DNA of 64,000 bases from an uncultured Acidobacteriota bacterium (GCA_963804245.1 CAWDPQ010000017.1:157545-221544); one strand, 5' to 3'. Positions 7,461 through 13,282 are shown, counted from the stretch's first letter. Translations and numbers: made by a program. The notes: a model not told the origin generated them from the sequence alone.

Positions 7461-8245
7461 CGCAAACGCGGACGTCCGGTCGAACGCGCGTTCTCATTGC
7501 CGACGACGAACCGCTGGCGCGCGAGCGGCTGAGGATGCTGCTGTCGAAAGAGGACTGGGTCGAGATCGCCGGCGAGTGCGACAACGGTCACGACGCAGTG
7601 GCGGCGATTCAGAAGCTCAAACCGGATCTCGTCTTCCTCGATGTCCAGATGCCGGGCAGCACCGGGTTCGACGTCATTGACAGCGTCGGGGCGGGCCGCA
7701 TGCCGGCGGTCGTCTTCGTGACGGCCTACGATCGCTATGCGCTGCGCGCGTTTGACGTGCACGCGCTCGACTACCTGCTCAAGCCGTTCGACCGCGAGCG
7801 GTTCCAACAAGCGCTGGGGCGCGCGCGACAGCATCTGGACAGGAAAAACGCCGGCGAGCTCGAACGCCGCCTGCTCGAACTGGTCCAGGATCTGCGATCC
7901 ACGCCACAGCGGCCCGAGCGCTTCGTCATCAAGAGCGGCGGGCGCGTGTTCTTCGTCCGTACGGACGAAATCGATTGGGTGGAAGCGGCCGGCAACTACG
8001 TCAAGCTTCACGTCGGCAACGAAGCCCACCTCCTGCGCGAAACCATGAACGCGCTGGAAGCGCAACTCGATCCCGATGTGTTCTTCCGCATCCACCGATG
8101 CCACATCGTGAACATCGAGCGCGTGAAGGAGCTGCAGCCCTGGTTCAACGGGGAATACGTCGTGTTCCTCCGCAGCGGCGCCCGCCTGACGCTCAGCCGC
8201 GGCTACCGGGAAAAGCTCCAGGATCGGATTGGCCGGTCGCTCTGA
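7457..8245 (+). CDS. LytTR family response regulator
   Basis: ATG overlaps kinase TGA; ADDEPLAR, FLDVQMP, YLLKP; LytTR FFRIHRCHIVN. Confidence 0.93.
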   Translation: MTQTRTSGRTRVLIADDEPLARERLRMLLSKEDWVEIAGECDNGHDAVAAIQKLKPDLVFLDVQMPGSTGFDVIDSVGAGRMPAVVFVTAYDRYALRAFDVHALDYLLKPFDRERFQQALGRARQHLDRKNAGELERRLLELVQDLRSTPQRPERFVIKSGGRVFFVRTDEIDWVEAAGNYVKLHVGNEAHLLRETMNALEAQLDPDVFFRIHRCHIVNIERVKELQPWFNGEYVVFLRSGARLTLSRGYREKLQDRIGRSL

Positions 8246-8252
8246 TCGCATT

Positions 8253-8308
8253 CCCCAGCTCCCCAGTTCCCCAGTTCCCCAGCTCCCCAGTTCCCCAGCT
8301 CCCCAGTT
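8253..8308. repeat. (CCCCAGYT)x7 octamer tandem repeat
   Basis: Seven consecutive units, each CCCCAGCT or CCCCAGTT, between convergent genes. Confidence 0.95.
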
Positions 8309-8314
8309 TCTGAT

Positions 8315-10298
8315 TCACCTTGTCCACCCGAACGACAGGACTGTGCGTCCGTCGCGAAGGCCATGCGCGACATCTGCACGCAGCACTCCGGCTCCGGGCA
8401 GCGCCACACGAATTCCGGCGCCTGCGTCCACGTGAGCGCGTCGATCGCCGAACGTCGGCACCGCGAACGCGCGTGCGGTGTCGACGAACACCGCCGGCGC
8501 CAGGCGCAGCGTTCGCAGGACGGGACGAGCCCAGTACCGACCACTCGACCCCGGCATGGACAAGTCGGCGGCCGAACACGCCGCGGACCACGCCGTCGTG
8601 AAGGAGCGGGTGGGCACGCAAAAGCACCTCACGCCCCTGCCCGGTGCCCGCGCCCGGCAGCAGCGCCAATGGCGTCTCCGAAGTGGTGGTCGTCAGACCA
8701 CCACGCGTGGACCATACCGATCCCACTCGCGAGTGTGACGAGCGCCAGTCTGACGTGACGCCGAAAGTAGACGCGCGAAGACCCCCAACAAGAATCGACC
8801 CGTCGACCATCGCCCGGCCGAGACCGCCCGCGAAGGTGCGTTCGACGCCGGCGACGAGCGACGCCGTCGTGTCCTGGTCCCACCGGTCAACGGCTGCGCC
8901 CGCCTTGATCCGGGTGACGCCGCTGGTCCAGTCGGACGCGGTGAGCATCACGCCGCGTCGGCGCTCCTTGATCTCGGATCCCGCCGCGCCGTAAGTCTGG
9001 TTCTCCACTAACGCTTCCAGCGACCAGATGCCGCCGAACGGCGACGGAGCCTCGACGCCGAGCGCCAGCCGCGGACGTCTTTCCCACCATCGCCACGCCG
9101 CCGTCCACAGCTCGCCGCCCCCGGTTGGACTCGCCATGGCGACGCTCAACTCGCGATCCGTCGCGGCGCGAATGCCGGCAGCAGACAGCGATACGAGATC
9201 CGAAGGAAACAACGGTCGCTCGAGCACGGACGCCATCACCTTGGCGCGGTCGTCCTCGCGAGGTTCGTAGGTGACCCGCGACCCGAGGAGCGAGGGCAAC
9301 GCTTCCAGCCGCCGCCGCGCACGCGCCAGTGCGAAACCGGTCAGCAGCGTGTCCGGTTGGAGGTGGAGCGCCCTGGCAGCCACGGCGTACCGTGTCCGTT
9401 CGAGACCGCGGATATCCGCGAGATCGACAACCGGAACGCCAATCCGGTTCCACGCATTCAACGCTTCGATGTCGCGCCCGAGAAGGAAGAGGGCTGAAGC
9501 CAGGATTCGAGCTGAATGTCTATCGGTGGGATCCCGCTCGAGGGCCCGACCCGCATCTCGCGCCGCCTCGCTCCAGTCGGAGCGCAGCGCCTTCACCCCG
9601 GCCAGCTCCCGCCACGGCGCTGGATCCCGCGGACACTCGGTAGTGGCGATTTCGAGGATGCGCTGGGCGCCGGCGAGATCCGAGACCGCCGTGCGGATGC
9701 CCTCCTCCACCAGCCCGGTGCAGACCGGATTTCCGCGACGGGCATCCGCATCGGCCGACGGTGCGTTCGTTGACGAATCCGCCACGGCACCGGATGTCAC
9801 TGCGGTTCTCGGTTCGGCGACGAGCGTCCAGAACCGCGACGCCGACCACGCCCGTGTGAAGGCCTCCGCCTCCAGGACGCGAAAGGGCGAGCGAGCCGGA
9901 TCGTGCACGATGACCCGATTCCCTCGCCAACCGACGATCACGACGTAGTGAAAGCGGCCCGGCCGATCCTCGATGAGCGCGATCACCGGCCGGCGTTTCG
10001 CCAGCAGGTCCTGCACGCGCGACGCGTCTCCTTCGATCGCGACCGCTGCATACCCGCGCCCTTCGAGCGCTCGGATCAGCTCGCGGCCGCGAATGCCCTT
10101 GGCATCGGCATCAACGAGATCGGCAAACGTCTCCGCGTAGACGGCACTCGTCCCCCAATACCGCATCACCATGGCGATTGCCGCGCCGCCACACAGCGCT
10201 TCGCTCTGCGGGAGGAACGGGACGTCGAGAAGAGGTCCGGGTGAAGAGTCGGATTGGGCCCGAGCCGGGGAAGGGGCGGCCGCCGCGGCCAATGCCAC
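8315..10298 (-). CDS. C39-like cysteine peptidase-TPR-POTRA-outer-membrane beta-barrel protein, one frameshift near 8540
   Basis: QSEALCGGAAIAM / HYVVIVGW / HDPA triad; TPR-like helices; POTRA-like IRGLERTR...RRLEALP...VLERP; barrel end VDAGAGIRV...LRADVAHGL...SFGWTR in ORF 8315..8632. Confidence 0.75.
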
Positions 10299-10350
10299 CG
10301 CGGCCGTCAGGACAACGCGAAGAAAGCGGGCGATGTGGTCGACGTCAGCC

Positions 10351-10740
10351 TCAATCCGCGATCACAACGATGAGGATGACGATCAGCAGCACGATGATAA
10401 TCGTCGTCGTTGAGATGACGATCGTTGATGCCCCACCGGCGAGATCGTTCTCGGCCTGCCTCGCCTGGGACGCCAGGTCACGCAGGTCGTCGCCCTGAAG
10501 GGTCGATACCGCGGCAGCCGCCTTCTCGACCGACAGTCCGGCCCGCGCTGCAATTGTGCGAACTTCGGTACGGTGCAGAAGTGTGAGAATCGCGTCACGG
10601 TCCGCCTGATCCCGGCTGACCCGCTCCGCCACCGCCTTCGCCAGATCTGTTTTTCCGATGACGTGCGTCTGCGCCTGAGCGGCAGGCGCGACGAGCAGCA
10701 GTGCAAGGGTTACCGCTAGCAAACGCCGAACGATTCTCAT
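10351..10740 (-). CDS. Secreted PA2779-like protein with a double-Gly motif and hydrophobic C-terminal peptide
   Basis: Signal peptide (AQA), helical middle, DLAGG followed by ASTIVISTTTIIIVLLIVILIVVIAD; adjacent to the C39 gene. Confidence 0.7.
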   Translation of the reverse strand: MRIVRRLLAVTLALLLVAPAAQAQTHVIGKTDLAKAVAERVSRDQADRDAILTLLHRTEVRTIAARAGLSVEKAAAAVSTLQGDDLRDLASQARQAENDLAGGASTIVISTTTIIIVLLIVILIVVIAD

Positions 10741-10848
10741 CTGAAGCCTCCTCGAACAGTCCGAGTCAGGGACACCAGATTGGTACGGCCAAGCATCTTC
10801 CGTACCCGTACCTGAAGCTGAACCGCCGGATCCGGAACGACCAGGAGT

Positions 10849-13282
10849 TTACTCGTCGCGCAGGACGACCATGGGGTCGACGCGAGTCGCGCGGCTGGCG
10901 GGGACGTAACACGCGAGTCCCGCAACCACGGCGATAAAGGCCATCACCGCAGCGATGGTACCGGGATCTGTGGGCCTGACGTTGAAAAGCTGCGCTTGGA
11001 GAAAGCGCGTCAGCACCAGCGACGCGGCGAGCCCGATCACGAGTCCGGCCACCGTCAGCCGCGCACCCTGGCCGAGCACCATTCCCAGCACGGTCTGACG
11101 CGTTGCGCCGAGTGCCATGTGGATGCCGATCTCCTTGCGGCGTTCGCTGACGGTGTATGACAGGATTCCGTACGTGCCGATTGCGGCCAGCAGCAGTGCC
11201 AGGCCGGCAAACAGCCCGAGCAGCTGCGCGAGGAATCGCGGTCGCGCGACCGACTCGGAGAACACGTCTTCCATCGTGCGCAGCCGCACGATGGGCAGCG
11301 TCGGATCCATCGTTCCGACAATCTGCCTGGATGTTCGTTGCCAGCGATTCGACGGGCAGCGCCGATCTGATGACGATGTTCATGTTCGAGGGCGCGAAGT
11401 TGGTGAGCCGCCCTTGTTCGGCCATGAAGTACAACTCGGTCCCGGTCTTGCTGCCCACTCCACCCTGTTTCACGTCACGGACGACGCCGACGATCGTCAA
11501 CCAGGGATTCTTGGGGTTGAACCCGACGCGCAATCGCTTGCCGATCGGACTGCGGTCTTTGTAGAACGTCTTTGCCAGCGTCTCGTTCACCATCACGACC
11601 GGCGTGCCCGTAGTATCGGACAGCATGAAGTCCCGTCCTTCGATGACTGGAATTCCCATCGTCGTCAGGTATTCCTGCGTGACCGTCTGATAGTAGTCGA
11701 CGTTCTCGAACGGAGGTTGCCCTTGCGTCGTGTAGTCCTCGAAGTCCGTATCGTTCGCGTTCACGAGCCGCATCGGCGGAAGGCCTGTCATTCCAGCGGC
11801 ACCCTGCACGCCAGGAATCTGACGAAGCTGATCGATCAGCCGCCTGGAGAAGTCGACGCGTGACTGCGGTGCCTGGTACGAGGCTTGAGGCAGGACGACG
11901 CCAAACGTGACGAGCCGGCTTCGGTTGAAGCCGGCATCGACCTTCATCAGATTCCAGAAGCTGCGCAGGAGCAGGCCGGCGCCGACCACGAGCACCACCG
12001 CCAGGGCGACTTCACCCATGACGAGGCCGCTCCGCAGCCGCGCGCGGGCGGCATTGGCCGTCGAGCGCTGCCCCGACTCCTTGAGGGAGGCAGTGACGGT
12101 GCGCTCGCGCAGATGCAGCAGAGGGGCCATCCCGAACAACGCCCCGGTGACGAGCGAAATGACGACCGTGAACAGCAGCACGACGGGATCGAGAACGATG
12201 TTCGTGGCGCGGGGAAGACTCTCGGGGTTGGCGGCGAGCATCGCCCTCAGGCCGGCAAAGCCCAGAGCCACGCCGAGAACCCCGCCGATGAGGGCGAGGA
12301 GTATGCCCTCGGTCAAGAATTGCCGGAGGAGTCTGAAGCGTCCGGCGCCAAGGGCCGCGCGAATCGCGAACTCCTTCTGTCGCGACTCGGCGCGCGCCAG
12401 CAGCAGGTTGGCCAGGTTCGCGCAGGCAATCAGGAGCACGAAACCCACTGCCCCTTGCAGCACCCAGAGCGCGGTCGCGATGCCGCCGACGAGATCCTCC
12501 TGAAGGCCGTCGAGGCGCAGACGATGATTTTTCGGGTCGGGTGTGTGGACTTTCGCATTGAGCTCGTTCCACTGAACGAGCATGCGCTCCACGTCTGCTC
12601 CGGCCTGAACCATGCTCACGTCGTCCCGCAGGCGACCAACGAGGTAGAGGAAATGGCCGCCGCGGTTTCCGGGATTCGCGGGATCCAACGTCAGCGGCAG
12701 CCACACTTGCACTTTCGCGTCGTGGATGTCGTAGCCGGCGGGCATGATGCCCACGATGCGCGTCGGAGCGCCGTCGATGCGGACAACGCGGCCCATCACT
12801 GATTCGTCCGAGGCAAATGCCGTTTGCCAGATCTCCTGGGACAGGATGGCGACGTCCTCTGCTCCGGGCAGCGTGTCTTCTCTCGTGAATTGACGCCCGC
12901 GGATGGGAGCCACGCCGAGGACCGGCATGAGCTCTGAGGTCACGATGGCGGAGTTCACGCGGCGCGGCTGGTCCGTGGTGCCGAGGTTCACCGCACCGGC
13001 GCGATACGCGCCGACTTCAGCGAACGACTTGTTGCGCTCGCGGAACTCCACGAACTCCGGTGCGGAAACCCAGAACTGGTCGAACCCGAGCGTGGGAAAC
13101 TGCGAGGTGATGAACACGAGCCGATCGGGCTGCTGGTACGGGAGCGGCTTCAACAGCACGCCGTTCACGACGCTGAAGATGGCGCTGTTCACGCCGATGC
13201 CGAGCGCCAGCGTCAGCACGGTGACGACAGCATAGCCGGGGCTCTTGCGCAGGTTGCGAAGGGCGTAACGTAAGTCGTGCAT
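10849..13282 (-). CDS. ADOP-type duplicated MacB/FtsX ABC permease, one frameshift near 11320
   Basis: MHDLRYALRNLRKSPG...LALGIG; LLIACANLANLLLAR...EFAIRAALGA; C-terminus RRKEIGIHMALGA...PASRATRVDPMVVLRDE. Confidence 0.92.

What the first reader, a model, noticed from the sequence alone, without database searches (positions are those of the whole stretch)
8315..10298. C39 peptidase fused to TPR, POTRA and an Omp85-like barrel: a type Vd-like autotransporter with a protease passenger
Seen: a C39-type Q..C/H/D triad, then TPR-like helices, one POTRA-like segment and a barrel ending in a Trp-containing terminal strand (needs one frameshift repair near 8540). Known: type Vd (PlpD) proteins are passenger-POTRA-Omp85 barrel fusions with a patatin passenger; stand-alone C39-TPR proteins (PA2778-like) lack a barrel. 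Inferred: an outer-membrane-anchored processing protease, an architecture I do not recognise as characterised.
Basis: partly seen in the sequence, partly recalled or inferred. Interest (0 to 1): 0.7.

Follow-up and report, generated by a model that had tools for sequence, protein, structure and literature searches.

The report
Cysteine protease fused to Omp85 barrel
A soil acidobacterium really does encode a Gly-Gly-type cysteine protease joined to an outer-membrane Omp85 barrel, always beside a small membrane-tailed protein with an invariant Gly-Gly that is its likely target; I found no description or test of this combination in the papers I could search.

Summary
On the minus strand, about 8315-10361, lies one gene for a C39 cysteine peptidase, three TPR repeats, one POTRA and an Omp85-type barrel. 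It is broken in this assembly by one extra base at 8537/8538. Contigs of three independent soil runs lack that base, so it is an assembly error or strain-private mutation.

An AlphaFold model of a 94%-identical intact homologue is confident (pLDDT 89). Its best solved-structure matches are TamA and BamA (E 4e-14). The catalytic Gln/Cys/His/Asp residues and the Omp85 loop-6/strand-13 motifs are invariant in 115 homologues. The fusion is the rule: more than 1000 full-length relatives and 161 species genomes, mainly Vicinamibacterales.

The "type Vd autotransporter with protease passenger" reading is probably wrong. The gene always follows a PA2779-family gene, in 81 of 85 loci. That small protein has a signal peptide, a helical domain, an invariant Gly-Gly and a hydrophobic C-terminal tail. 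Two proteobacterial PA2778 peptidases I inspected are short lipoproteins without a barrel. PlpD, the type Vd prototype, has since been shown to keep its enzyme domain in the periplasm.

Best reading: a periplasm-facing, outer-membrane-tethered peptidase that clips its dedicated partner at Gly-Gly. It is a new variant of known kinds, and untested.

The parts
10351..10740 (-). Gene for the PA2779-family / DUF6627 small protein (129 aa), the proposed substrate. It has a Sec signal peptide (aa 1-24), a helical periplasmic domain, an invariant Gly-Gly (aa 102-103) and a C-terminal hydrophobic tail (aa 104-129).
   Evidence: NCBIfam NF033919 scores 41.7 bits against a cut-off of 40, and Pfam DUF6627 scores 26.5 against 27. 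A homologue lies directly upstream of the peptidase in 81/85 loci. It is the only ORF of this genome with a GG plus hydrophobic C-tail and the only NF033919 match. The AF2 model has helices 30-55, 58-66, 71-78 and 84-101, coil at 102-111 and a helix at 112-128.
10432..10437 (-). Gly102-Gly103 codons of the small protein, the proposed C39 cleavage site (LAGG|AS).
   Evidence: G102 and G103 are 66/66 invariant and L100 is 91% conserved in the locus-derived alignment. G103 stays invariant when distant members are included. The motif is also present in the Azoarcus and Eleftheria PA2779 proteins.
8315..10361 (-). The whole gene for the C39 peptidase-TPR-POTRA-Omp85 fusion, about 661-680 aa. The start codon is uncertain: GTG at 10298, ATC at 10334 or ATT at 10355. 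Relatives use a TTG where the window has TCG at 10359-10361. The stop is at 8315-8317.
   Evidence: ORFs come, and the start comparison. There are 1127 homologues among the 8000 scored candidates, and all but one (a 444-aa fragment) of the best 120 are 606-690 aa. The gene is single copy in this genome.
9804..10229 (-). C39 cysteine peptidase domain (aa 24-165, numbered from GTG 10298). Catalytic codons: Gln31, Cys36 (10191-10193), His117 (9948-9950) and Asp133 (9900-9902).
   Evidence: Pfam PF03412 at 9.5e-13, PF13529 at 2.3e-11 and PF12385 at 5.3e-07. The family profile matches the ComA and PCAT1 peptidase domains in PDB. The four residues are 115/115 invariant.
9729..9803 (-). Low-confidence, variable linker between C39 and TPR (aa 166-190).
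   Evidence: pLDDT is 47-72 across the 10-residue blocks covering aa 161-190, with aa 168-175 below 50. This stretch varies in length and sequence in the alignment.
9447..9728 (-). Three TPR repeats (six helices, aa 191-284) with an invariant Cys pair (C193 and C222).
   Evidence: Model helices are at 191-204, 208-221, 226-238, 242-255, 260-272 and 276-284. The profile matches consensus TPR proteins at E 1e-15 to 1e-8. The Cys pair is 115/115 invariant.
9219..9431 (-). Single POTRA domain (aa 290-360, beta-alpha-alpha-beta-beta).
   Evidence: DSSP of the model gives E290-297, H304-311, H321-332, E337-346 and E351-360. Foldseek alignments to TamA and BamA span 420-540 columns, more than the barrel alone. 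Sequence signals are weak: PF07244 at E 0.26 and B. thetaiotaomicron BamA 9hiv at E 0.3.
8318..9152 (-). Omp85-type beta-barrel (aa 383-661), ending ...VLSFGWTR. It contains the frame change.
   Evidence: DSSP assigns 15 strands between aa 383 and 660. Foldseek gives TamA and BamA at E 4e-14 to 1e-10, probability 1.00. NCBIfam Omp85_fam matches the C-terminus at E 0.001-0.0025.
8568..8684 (-). Long loop (aa 539-577) corresponding to Omp85 loop L6. It holds the most conserved block of the family, GAGTGQGR..LLRAHPLL.DG.(I/V)R.GVFG.
   Evidence: R561, A562 and H563 are 115/115 invariant. F605-x-D607-x-[A/G] on the second strand after the loop is 115/115 invariant. This pattern is the Omp85 hallmark described in PMC9355242.
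8537..8538 (-). Site of the single extra base (GG on the minus strand) that shifts the reading frame by +1 in this assembly.
   Evidence: See the frame comparison, the homologue alignment, the tblastn break at aa 587/588, and 'left out 1' at 8537 in contigs of runs X1, X5 and X6.

Best explanation
The locus is a two-gene envelope module. It is a barrel-anchored form of the catalogued but unstudied PA2779/PA2778 pair.

**Gene 1 (10351-10740, minus strand).** It makes a small pre-protein that Sec exports. After signal-peptide removal, its roughly 78-residue helical domain sits in the periplasm. A C-terminal hydrophobic tail holds it to a membrane. An invariant Gly-Gly lies in a short non-helical stretch between an amphipathic helix and the tail.

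**Gene 2 (about 8315-10361, minus strand).** It makes a Sec-exported protein whose C-terminal Omp85-type barrel inserts in the outer membrane. Its POTRA, three TPR repeats and catalytically intact C39 cysteine peptidase hang into the periplasm.

**Proposed action.** The C39 domain recognises the helix-Gly-Gly element of the partner, as double-glycine peptidases recognise leader peptides, and cuts after Gly-Gly. This separates the helical domain from its membrane tail. The TPR and POTRA probably dock the substrate.

**Shown here.**
- The domain architecture, at fold level.
- Conservation of the catalytic residues.
- Conservation of the Omp85 hallmark motifs.
- The obligate gene pairing and the invariant Gly-Gly.
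- Transcription in soil.
- That the frameshift is private to this assembly.

**Inferred.**
- The topology, with the enzyme on the periplasmic side.
- The substrate identity and the cleavage site.
- What the released product does.
For: - **Architecture.** Pfam C39 is above threshold. The AF2 model of the 94%-identical P0001 has pLDDT 89.3 and pTM 0.78, with C39, linker, six TPR helices, a POTRA and a barrel. Foldseek top hits are TamA and BamA at E 4e-14.
- **Active enzyme and real Omp85.** Q31/C36/H117/D133, the L6-like R561 and the F605-x-D607 motif are each 115/115 invariant.
- **Fusion is the norm.** There are 1127 homologues, and all but one fragment of the top 120 are 606-690 aa. 161 species genomes encode it. 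The barrel piece finds 607 clusters at 50% identity.
- **Dedicated partner.** The neighbour passes the PA2779_fam cut-off and is present in 81/85 loci. Gly-Gly is 66/66 invariant, with a sequence-conserved tail VISTTTIII. There is only one such protein in the 5.8 Mb genome. Other neighbours (FtsX, LytTR, kinase) are kept in only 20-27 of 85 loci.
- **Periplasmic side.**
  - The substrate has a Sec signal and a C-terminal anchor, so its Gly-Gly is periplasmic.
  - The two canonical PA2778 peptidases I inspected have lipoboxes (LSLAAC|Q and LGLTGC|A) and no barrel.
  - The TPR region carries an invariant Cys pair.
  - PlpD's N-terminal domain is experimentally periplasmic (PMC11116518).
- **Expression.** Rhizosphere metatranscriptome contigs 95-99% alike cover the gene and span the junction with the small gene, at 10179-10380 and 10259-10409.
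- **Frameshift not biological.** Three independent runs lack the base at 8537. A second indel against the same runs lies at 10768.
Against: - No experiment exists for any member of the PA2778/PA2779 families.
- Cleavage at Gly-Gly is inferred only from family chemistry and conservation.
- The Gly-Gly lies about 8 residues from the predicted membrane helix. If that tail sits in the inner membrane, an outer-membrane-tethered enzyme must reach across the periplasm. Only a roughly 25-residue flexible linker (aa 166-190) helps.
- The hydrophobic pattern before Gly-Gly (L-4, V-8, A-11, L-15) only partly matches the canonical double-glycine leader pattern (-4, -7, -12, -15).
- One distant member (L086) has Ala-Gly instead of Gly-Gly.
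- The strong conservation of the L6 and strand-13 motifs suggests the barrel does more than anchor.
- I had no model coordinates. I could not check where the C39 site lies relative to the barrel, or the strand count (15 by DSSP).
- The lipoprotein argument rests on two examples.
- The start codon in this window is unresolved.
Confidence: 0.6

Rival explanations
1. Protease-gated export route. The C39 domain clips the partner at Gly-Gly. The TPR and POTRA then feed the freed helical domain, or the hydrophobic C-terminal peptide, through or along the fused Omp85 barrel to the cell surface or medium. This would be like a TpsB transporter with a built-in maturation protease, an outer-membrane counterpart of peptidase-containing ABC exporters.
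For: - The barrel keeps the functional Omp85 hallmarks (L6 Arg and F-x-D on strand 13, 115/115), more than a passive anchor would need.
- A POTRA domain, the substrate-binding unit of Omp85 transporters, is retained.
- The model has a helix (aa 368-381) between POTRA and barrel, which recalls the plug helix of TpsB proteins.
- The tail sequence VISTTTIII is conserved as sequence and is rich in beta-branched residues. It could pair with a barrel seam.
Against: - The proteobacterial PA2778 peptidases I inspected work without any barrel, so export through a fused barrel cannot be the core function of the pair.
- The closest folds are BamA and TamA, whose barrels are closed to the outside, rather than FhaC (PMC4104836).
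- A folded helical bundle is a poor Omp85 passenger.
- There is no evidence on where the product ends up.
Confidence: 0.15
2. One reading: a type Vd-like autotransporter whose C39-TPR 'passenger' is moved through its own barrel and displayed or released on the cell surface, to process extracellular substrates.
For: - The domain order matches the PlpD/FplA layout: N-terminal enzyme, one POTRA, Omp85 barrel.
- A flexible linker follows the enzyme domain.
Against: - PlpD's enzyme domain has been shown to be periplasmic and not secreted, and FplA was not found on the surface (PMC11116518). The model system no longer supports the mechanism.
- The conserved neighbour and likely substrate exposes its Gly-Gly in the periplasm.
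- The barrel-less relatives I inspected are lipoproteins.
- TPR-POTRA units are periplasmic in every studied Omp85 protein.
- A folded roughly 280-residue C39-TPR unit would have to cross a BamA/TamA-like closed barrel without an energy source.
Confidence: 0.07
3. General envelope quality-control protease. A BepA-like arrangement (protease + TPR working at an Omp85 machine) hard-wired into one chain, which trims or degrades stalled outer-membrane or periplasmic proteins. The small neighbour would be a regulator or inhibitor rather than the substrate.
For: - The protease + TPR + Omp85 combination parallels BepA docking on BAM. This is my own knowledge; NCBIfam BepA gave only a weak TPR hit on the distant L086 protein.
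- The barrel resembles BamA and TamA.
Against: - C39 peptidases are narrow-specificity enzymes that cut after Gly-Gly.
- The pairing with a single Gly-Gly protein is near-obligate (81/85 loci), and that protein is unique in the genome.
- The partner is more conserved than the enzyme: 76-99% against 51-94% identity among the best 120 hits of each.
Confidence: 0.08
4. The gene is a pseudogene in this organism. The frameshift at 8537 is real and truncates the last five barrel strands.
For: - The window sequence as given needs a +1 shift.
- The canonical TTG start of relatives is also absent.
Against: - Three independent runs with 95-99% identical contigs lack the extra base.
- The same assembly shows another indel at 10768 and a split FtsX permease gene. 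Sister long-read bins show the same kind of splits.
- The out-of-frame C-terminus is still intact and 89% identical to P0001, so no decay has accumulated.
Confidence: 0.05

Closest known systems
PA2778 family cysteine peptidase with PA2779 family protein (NCBIfam NF033920 / NF033919; the small protein is Pfam DUF6627). Inspected examples: Azoarcus sp. KH32C pAZKH and an Eleftheria terrae plasmid.
   Same: - The gene order is the same, small protein then peptidase.
- The small protein has a signal peptide, a helical domain, a Gly-Gly and a hydrophobic C-terminal tail.
- The peptidase is C39 followed by TPR.
- The best NCBIfam hit of the window's peptidase family is NF033920.
- Neither form has a published function.
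   Different: - The two inspected canonical peptidases are about 300-320 aa lipoproteins (lipobox Cys) that end after the TPR.
- The window protein has an ordinary signal peptide and adds a POTRA and an Omp85 barrel, about 661-680 aa in all.
- It scores 50 bits against an equivalog cut-off of 150, so it is a related subfamily and not a member.
PlpD / FplA patatin-like Omp85 proteins (formerly 'type Vd secretion')
   Same: - An N-terminal enzyme domain, a single POTRA and an Omp85 barrel lie in one chain.
- By analogy with the revised PlpD topology, the enzyme probably faces the periplasm (PMC11116518).
   Different: - The enzyme is a C39 cysteine peptidase with TPR repeats, not a patatin-like phospholipase.
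- It has a dedicated protein partner next door.
- The barrel is too divergent for Pfam Bac_surface_Ag to detect.
- Dimerisation and lipid roles are unknown here.
BamA / TamA (Omp85 family insertases)
   Same: - They are the best structural matches: 8us2, 9hiv, 4k3c and 4c00 at E 4e-14 to 1e-12.
- They share a POTRA next to the barrel, an L6-like loop with an invariant Arg, and an F-x-D-x-[G/A] motif on the wall strand.
   Different: - This protein has one POTRA, against five in BamA and three in TamA.
- It carries N-terminal enzyme and TPR domains.
- It falls well below the sequence-model cut-offs.
- No role in protein insertion is indicated.
C39 peptidase domains of peptidase-containing ABC transporters (ComA, PCAT1, LahT)
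   Same: - The catalytic fold and the Gln/Cys/His/Asp residues are shared, with His-to-Asp spacing of 16 residues.
- The expected specificity is a cut after Gly-Gly that follows an amphipathic helix.
   Different: - Those domains are cytoplasmic, fused to an inner-membrane ABC exporter, and remove an N-terminal leader.
- Here the domain is exported and fused to an outer-membrane barrel, and the Gly-Gly lies 26 residues from the C-terminus of the partner.
Other enzyme-Omp85 fusions catalogued by Heinz and Lithgow 2014 ('Metallo', WD40-Omp85, patatin-Omp85)
   Same: They set a precedent that the Omp85 scaffold carries non-POTRA N-terminal domains, with topology debated (PMC4104836).
   Different: None of the ten subfamilies in that survey has a C39 peptidase or TPR. 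The paper contains no mention of peptidase, TPR or Acidobacteria.
C-terminal sorting signals cut by dedicated proteases (GlyGly-CTERM/rhombosortase, PEP-CTERM/exosortase)
   Same: There is a short motif containing Gly-Gly, then a hydrophobic helix at the extreme C-terminus. A dedicated protease is encoded nearby. This comparison rests on my own knowledge of these systems.
   Different: - The protease here is a soluble papain-like C39 domain, not an intramembrane enzyme.
- There is one substrate per genome, not many.
- The tail usually ends in Asp, Lys or Asn rather than a basic cluster.

Membership tests
Peptidase family C39 (Pfam PF03412) | Profile match above the curated cut-off | tested here: met
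   PF03412 scores 48.6 bits against 22, and PF13529 scores 44.9 against 24, on the window ORF.
Peptidase family C39 (Pfam PF03412) | Catalytic Cys and His, with the Gln oxyanion residue and the Asp | tested here: met
   Q31, C36, H117 and D133 are invariant in 115/115 homologues and present in the window.
Peptidase family C39 (Pfam PF03412) | Cleavage after a Gly-Gly motif | not testable with these tools
   Support is indirect only: an invariant Gly-Gly in the obligate neighbour.
PA2778 family cysteine peptidase (NCBIfam NF033920, equivalog) | Score at or above the curated cut-off of 150 bits | tested here: not met
   50.2 bits for P0001 (94% identical to the window protein) and 49.9 for P0031. 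The match covers profile positions 3-165 of 255.
PA2778 family cysteine peptidase (NCBIfam NF033920, equivalog) | Encoded next to a PA2779 family protein | tested here: met
   The neighbour at 10351-10740 scores 41.7 bits against a cut-off of 40. A homologue is present in 81/85 related loci.
PA2778 family cysteine peptidase (NCBIfam NF033920, equivalog) | Short (about 250-320 aa) C39 + TPR protein without further domains | tested here: not met
   The window protein is about 661-680 aa with a POTRA and a barrel. The canonical examples are 309-321 aa.
Omp85 superfamily | Transmembrane beta-barrel of the Omp85 fold (16 strands) | tested here: inconclusive
   At fold level the test is met: TamA and BamA at E 4e-14 to 1e-10, probability 1.00. 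DSSP gives 15 strands, and I had no coordinates to count them.
Omp85 superfamily | At least one POTRA domain before the barrel | tested here: met
   The model has beta-alpha-alpha-beta-beta at aa 290-360 with pLDDT above 90. The sequence signal is weak (PF07244 E 0.26).
Omp85 superfamily | Loop L6 with a conserved motif, paired with a motif on the inner barrel wall (PMC9355242) | tested here: met
   A long loop at aa 539-577 has invariant R561-A-H. F605-x-D607-x-[A/G] is invariant on the second strand after it. The classical (V/I)RG(F/Y) itself is only approximately kept, with R572 in 83/115.
Omp85 superfamily | Match to curated sequence models (Pfam PF01103, NCBIfam NF047779) | tested here: not met
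   There is no PF01103 hit even at E<=10. NF047779 scores 17-18 bits against a cut-off of 200.
Type Vd secretion / patatin-like Omp85 (PlpD, FplA) | N-terminal patatin-like lipase domain | tested here: not met
   The N-terminal domain is C39 + TPR, and there is no patatin hit.
Type Vd secretion / patatin-like Omp85 (PlpD, FplA) | One POTRA plus an Omp85 barrel, C-terminal to the enzyme | tested here: met
   See the model and Foldseek results.
Type Vd secretion / patatin-like Omp85 (PlpD, FplA) | Enzyme domain translocated to the cell surface | not testable with these tools
   This has been contradicted for PlpD itself (PMC11116518). Context here points to the periplasm.
Tetratricopeptide repeat | Profile match to TPR and paired-helix repeats | tested here: met
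   The family profile matches consensus TPR proteins at E 1e-15 to 1e-8 over positions 216-295. The model has six helices. Single-sequence Pfam hits are below cut-off.

The most novel reading that the evidence does not exclude
The PA2779-like protein and the C39-TPR-POTRA-Omp85 protein together form an undescribed protease-gated sorting or export pathway of the diderm envelope. The small protein waits on its C-terminal anchor. The cysteine peptidase forms an acyl-enzyme at Gly-Gly. The fused Omp85 unit then either passes the freed domain to or through the outer membrane, or transfers it onto an envelope acceptor. This would be a sortase-like logic built on an Omp85 scaffold. A second possibility is that the outer-membrane-tethered enzyme and a membrane-anchored substrate together report on envelope spacing.
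Probability: 0.15. Interest if true: 0.85.

Novelty: new variant of a known kind. Interest (0 to 1): 0.62.

Why it matters
- **A new Omp85 subfamily.** A cysteine peptidase plus TPR would join the short list of Omp85 proteins that carry an enzyme instead of only POTRA domains. The 2014 survey of ten subfamilies does not list it. After the PlpD revision, it supports the view that the Omp85 scaffold is reused to place enzymes on the periplasmic face of the outer membrane.
- **A concrete hypothesis for two unstudied families.** PA2778 and PA2779/DUF6627 occur from Pseudomonas relatives to soil Acidobacteria. The testable idea is that the small protein is cut at its invariant Gly-Gly by its neighbour.
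- **Abundance.** The family is large in soil metagenomes: more than 1000 clusters at 90% identity for the enzyme and 1804 for the partner. It is transcribed in rhizosphere samples, so it is likely a routine part of envelope biology in Vicinamibacterales, a dominant but poorly cultured soil group.
- **An annotation gap.** Standard domain models see only the C39 part, so roughly 370 residues (POTRA + barrel) of each protein are currently unannotated.

Tried and rejected
1. **Split homologues as separate genes.**
   - The 'short' C39 hits are fragments, or frameshift-split fusions in which tblastn runs on in another frame (L084 and L085).
   - The recurrent ~472-aa barrel hits start at an internal Met of the TPR block (MVDEGVRLAG...) with no signal peptide. 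They are truncated gene calls.
   - An earlier scan note reports a truly split four-gene form in another genome. I could not confirm or refute it.
There is no TGGCAC-N5-TTGCW-like site between 10741 and 10850, and window-wide matches are at chance level.
3. **FtsX/MacB permease, LytTR regulator and histidine kinase as parts of the system.** They are kept in only 20-27 of 85 loci, so I rejected them as core parts.
4. **Sequence-level proof of POTRA and barrel.** Pfam finds neither, and NCBIfam Omp85_fam and TamA hits are far below cut-off. Only structure prediction plus Foldseek and the motif check settled it.
5. **Literature.** I found no paper on the function of PA2778, PA2779 or DUF6627, and none that combines Omp85 with a C39 domain in one protein.
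6. **Plasmid collection searches.** The distant small protein found nothing. The C39 piece found the Azoarcus pair, plus unrelated periplasmic C39 genes in Cupriavidus in a different context.
8. **Model geometry.** Coordinates of the model were not available to me. Strand count, position of helix 368-381 and distance from the active site to the membrane are left open.
Full report
**1. What is in the sequence**

The minus strand carries a 701-codon ORF at 8193..10298. Its last ~110 residues look like out-of-frame translation. A second ORF at 8315..8632, in the +1 frame, ends in a barrel-like terminal strand...GVLRADVAHGLRDGRTVLSFGWTR*.

Aligned with ten full-length homologues, the two frames join at GVEWS|YW. 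The homologues read EWS-YW-xRPV, while the window reads gag tgg tcg [g] tac tgg. So there is one extra base, at 8537/8538. A tblastn of the closest intact homologue against the whole genome breaks at the same point, aa 587/588.

I laid Logan contigs of four independent soil and rhizosphere DNA runs on the site. The three that cover it (X1, X5, X6; 95-99% alike) all leave out one base at 8537. The same runs show a second indel at 10768. The neighbouring FtsX permease gene is also split. Sister long-read bins show the same kind of splits. The frameshift is therefore an assembly error, or at most a strain-private mutation, and intact copies exist.

**2. Domain content**

- **C39 peptidase.** Pfam places a C39 peptidase at aa 24-152: PF03412 at 9.5e-13, and PF13529 and PF12385 also above cut-off. 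In an alignment of 115 homologues at 50-76% identity, Gln31, Cys36, His117 and Asp133 are invariant. The His-Asp spacing of 16 residues is that of ComA-type double-glycine peptidases. The family profile hits the ComA and PCAT1 peptidase domains in PDB.
- **TPR.** Hits are sub-threshold for single sequences. With the family profile they are clear: consensus TPR proteins at E 1e-15 to 1e-8 over positions 216-295.
- **C-terminal half.** Pfam sees nothing in the last ~370 residues. NCBIfam gives only weak end-of-profile matches to Omp85_fam (E 0.001-0.0025) and TamA (E 0.028).

**3. Structure**

I ran an AlphaFold2 model of P0001. It is 94% identical to the window protein and starts at the same position. 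The alignment had 115 sequences. The model has mean pLDDT 89.3 and pTM 0.78. Its elements are:

| Element | Residues |
|---|---|
| C39 domain | 24-165 |
| Low-confidence linker | 166-190 |
| Six TPR helices | 191-284 |
| beta-alpha-alpha-beta-beta POTRA | 290-360 |
| Helix | 368-381 |
| Beta-strands (15 by DSSP) | 383-660 |
| Long loop within the barrel | 539-577 |

Foldseek against PDB returns TamA of P. aeruginosa (8us2, E 4.4e-14), B. thetaiotaomicron BamA (9hiv, 1.6e-13), H. ducreyi BamA (4k3c) and E. coli TamA (4c00). There are 205 hits at E<=1e-3.

The Omp85 hallmark is a loop L6 folded into the barrel, with a conserved motif salt-bridged to a motif on the barrel wall (PMC9355242). It has a clear counterpart here. 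The loop holds the most conserved block of the family, with R561-A-H invariant. The second strand after the loop carries an invariant F605-x-D607-x-[A/G].

Fifteen DSSP strands, with five after the loop, is compatible with the 16-strand layout but does not prove it.

**4. The fusion is the rule**

- The repaired protein finds 1127 homologues among the 8000 scored candidates. All but one of the best 120 are 606-690 aa, the exception being a 444-aa fragment. They are named at most 'C39 family peptidase'.
- 161 GTDB species genomes encode it. They are mostly Vicinamibacterales and other Acidobacteriota, with a few Gemmatimonadota, Krumholzibacteriota and Eisenbacteria.
- The POTRA + barrel piece alone finds 607 clusters at 50% identity.
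- Shorter hits proved to be fragments, frameshift-split fusions, or calls starting at an internal Met.
- A distant system (L086, 26% identity) has more TPRs and an Omp85-like C-terminus in an overlapping ORF, again with a PA2779-family neighbour. Whether that split is real was not decided.
- The genome holds one copy.

**5. The neighbour changes the interpretation**

Directly upstream, at 10351-10740 and overlapping or abutting the peptidase start, lies a 129-aa ORF. It passes the NCBIfam PA2779_fam cut-off (41.7 against 40) and sits just under the Pfam DUF6627 cut-off. It has a Sec signal peptide, a helical middle, and the end ...QARQAENDLAGG|ASTIVISTTTIIIVLLIVILIVVIAD.

- A homologue lies upstream of the peptidase in 81 of 85 loci. 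The four misses lack upstream DNA or are too divergent.
- In 66 aligned sequences Gly102 and Gly103 are invariant, and the tail is conserved as sequence, not only in hydrophobicity.
- The AF2 model of the small protein is moderate (pLDDT 69). It puts the Gly-Gly in a coil between an amphipathic helix (84-101) and the terminal helix (112-128).
- It is the only such protein in the genome.
- The other neighbours (FtsX, LytTR, kinase) are conserved only among close relatives.
- The partner is more conserved than the enzyme.

**6. Comparison with canonical PA2778/PA2779 pairs**

Two annotated proteobacterial pairs, in Azoarcus sp. KH32C and Eleftheria terrae, show the same small protein. Their ends read ...PAGG|NLTTTEWILIVL... 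and ...PAGG|DVLGVAVFVF.... Each is followed by a peptidase of about 310-320 aa that is C39 + TPR and then stops. Both peptidases begin with a lipobox (LSLAAC|Q and LGLTGC|A).

So in these two examples the canonical enzyme is a lipid-tethered periplasmic protein. The Vicinamibacterales form replaces the lipid anchor by POTRA + Omp85. The window protein fails the NF033920 equivalog cut-off (50 against 150 bits). It is a related subfamily, not a member.

**7. Why not type Vd**

Hanson et al. 2024 (PMC11116518) showed that the PlpD patatin domain is periplasmic and not secreted. They argue that a folded domain cannot pass a BamA-like closed barrel.

This fits three observations made here: the partner's Gly-Gly is periplasmic, the barrel-less relatives are lipoproteins, and the TPR carries an invariant Cys pair. 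The enzyme most likely faces the periplasm. The Heinz and Lithgow survey of Omp85 architectures lists WD40, 'Metallo', patatin and other forms, but no C39 or TPR form. I found no paper that describes this fusion or tests the PA2778/PA2779 pair.

**8. Expression**

Rhizosphere metatranscriptome contigs at 95-99% identity cover parts of the gene. Two span the junction between the small gene and the peptidase, at 10179-10380 and 10259-10409. This is consistent with co-transcription. Depth is low, and DNA carry-over cannot be excluded.

**9. Open points**

- **Start codon.** Relatives such as L001 start at a TTG that overlaps the small gene's stop. The window and its near-identical environmental relatives have TCG there. 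That leaves ATT 10355, ATC 10334 or GTG 10298.
- **Reach.** How an outer-membrane-tethered enzyme reaches a Gly-Gly close to the partner's membrane tail is unexplained.
- **Barrel function.** The strong conservation of the Omp85 functional motifs suggests the barrel is more than an anchor. This keeps an export or hand-over role alive as a rival.

**10. Verdict**

The locus is best described as a barrel-anchored variant of the PA2779/PA2778 module: a periplasm-facing Gly-Gly peptidase with a dedicated membrane-tailed substrate. It is a new variant of known kinds, widespread in soil bacteria, expressed, and entirely untested.

Earlier notes of this scan describe the same architecture in other genomes. 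I treated them as leads only. My conclusions rest on the calls cited above.

Noticed in passing
window 8252-8308: A tandem array of about 7 octamers, (TCCCCAGY)n on the + strand and GGGG-rich on the minus strand, lies between the convergent LytTR regulator gene and the peptidase stop. Its summed contig depth in four soil metagenomes is 100-400 times that of the flanks (1000-2600 against about 6). So the same repeat is widespread in many genomes, and it also appears in metatranscriptome contigs.
   Followed up: partly
window 10766-13282 and 10849-11310 (minus strand): The upstream FtsX/MacB-type duplicated permease gene is also split between two frames. A further single-base indel relative to environmental contigs lies at 10768. 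This supports indel errors in this long-read assembly. The same gene is split in the sister bin L001 (498 + 314 aa).
   Followed up: partly
window 10334-10361 (minus strand): The peptidase gene has no ATG/GTG/TTG in front of its signal-peptide-like N-terminus. Relatives use a TTG created by an ATT Ile codon of the overlapping small gene, while the window has ATC, giving TCG. Possible starts are ATT at 10355 (which overlaps the small gene's TGA as ATTGA), ATC at 10334, or GTG at 10298 with a very short signal peptide.
   Followed up: partly
L086:5580-8303: A distant relative of the module (26% identity) has a C39 protein with many more TPRs (523 aa) and an overlapping 248-aa Omp85-like C-terminal ORF. 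Its PA2779-family partner has Ala-Gly instead of Gly-Gly before the tail. I did not decide whether the split is real or an indel.
   Followed up: partly
L088:3833-4531 (Cupriavidus metallidurans CH34 megaplasmid): A 232-aa signal-peptide C39 peptidase sits in a different context, among Gly/Ala/Asn/Thr-rich secreted repeat proteins and a 490-aa putative outer-membrane protein. It may be another periplasmic C39 system (fibre or amyloid-like), unrelated to the PA2779 pair.
   Followed up: no
L087:9150-9815 (Azoarcus sp. KH32C pAZKH): A rhomboid family intramembrane serine protease gene lies about 3.3 kb downstream of the canonical PA2779/PA2778 pair. This is of note because Gly-Gly C-terminal tails are rhombosortase substrates in other systems. 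It may be coincidence.
   Followed up: no
L001:5634-6764 and L002:3434-4524: A RES toxin / Xre-MbcA-ParS antitoxin pair lies upstream of the FtsX permease genes in two relatives' loci. I did not check it in the window.
   Followed up: no
PMC10155442 (Pseudomonas stutzeri DSM4166): A 'PA2779 family protein' gene (PSTAA_2481) is listed among the genes used to screen for strong constitutive promoters. This hints that the small protein is highly expressed in a pseudomonad.
   Followed up: no
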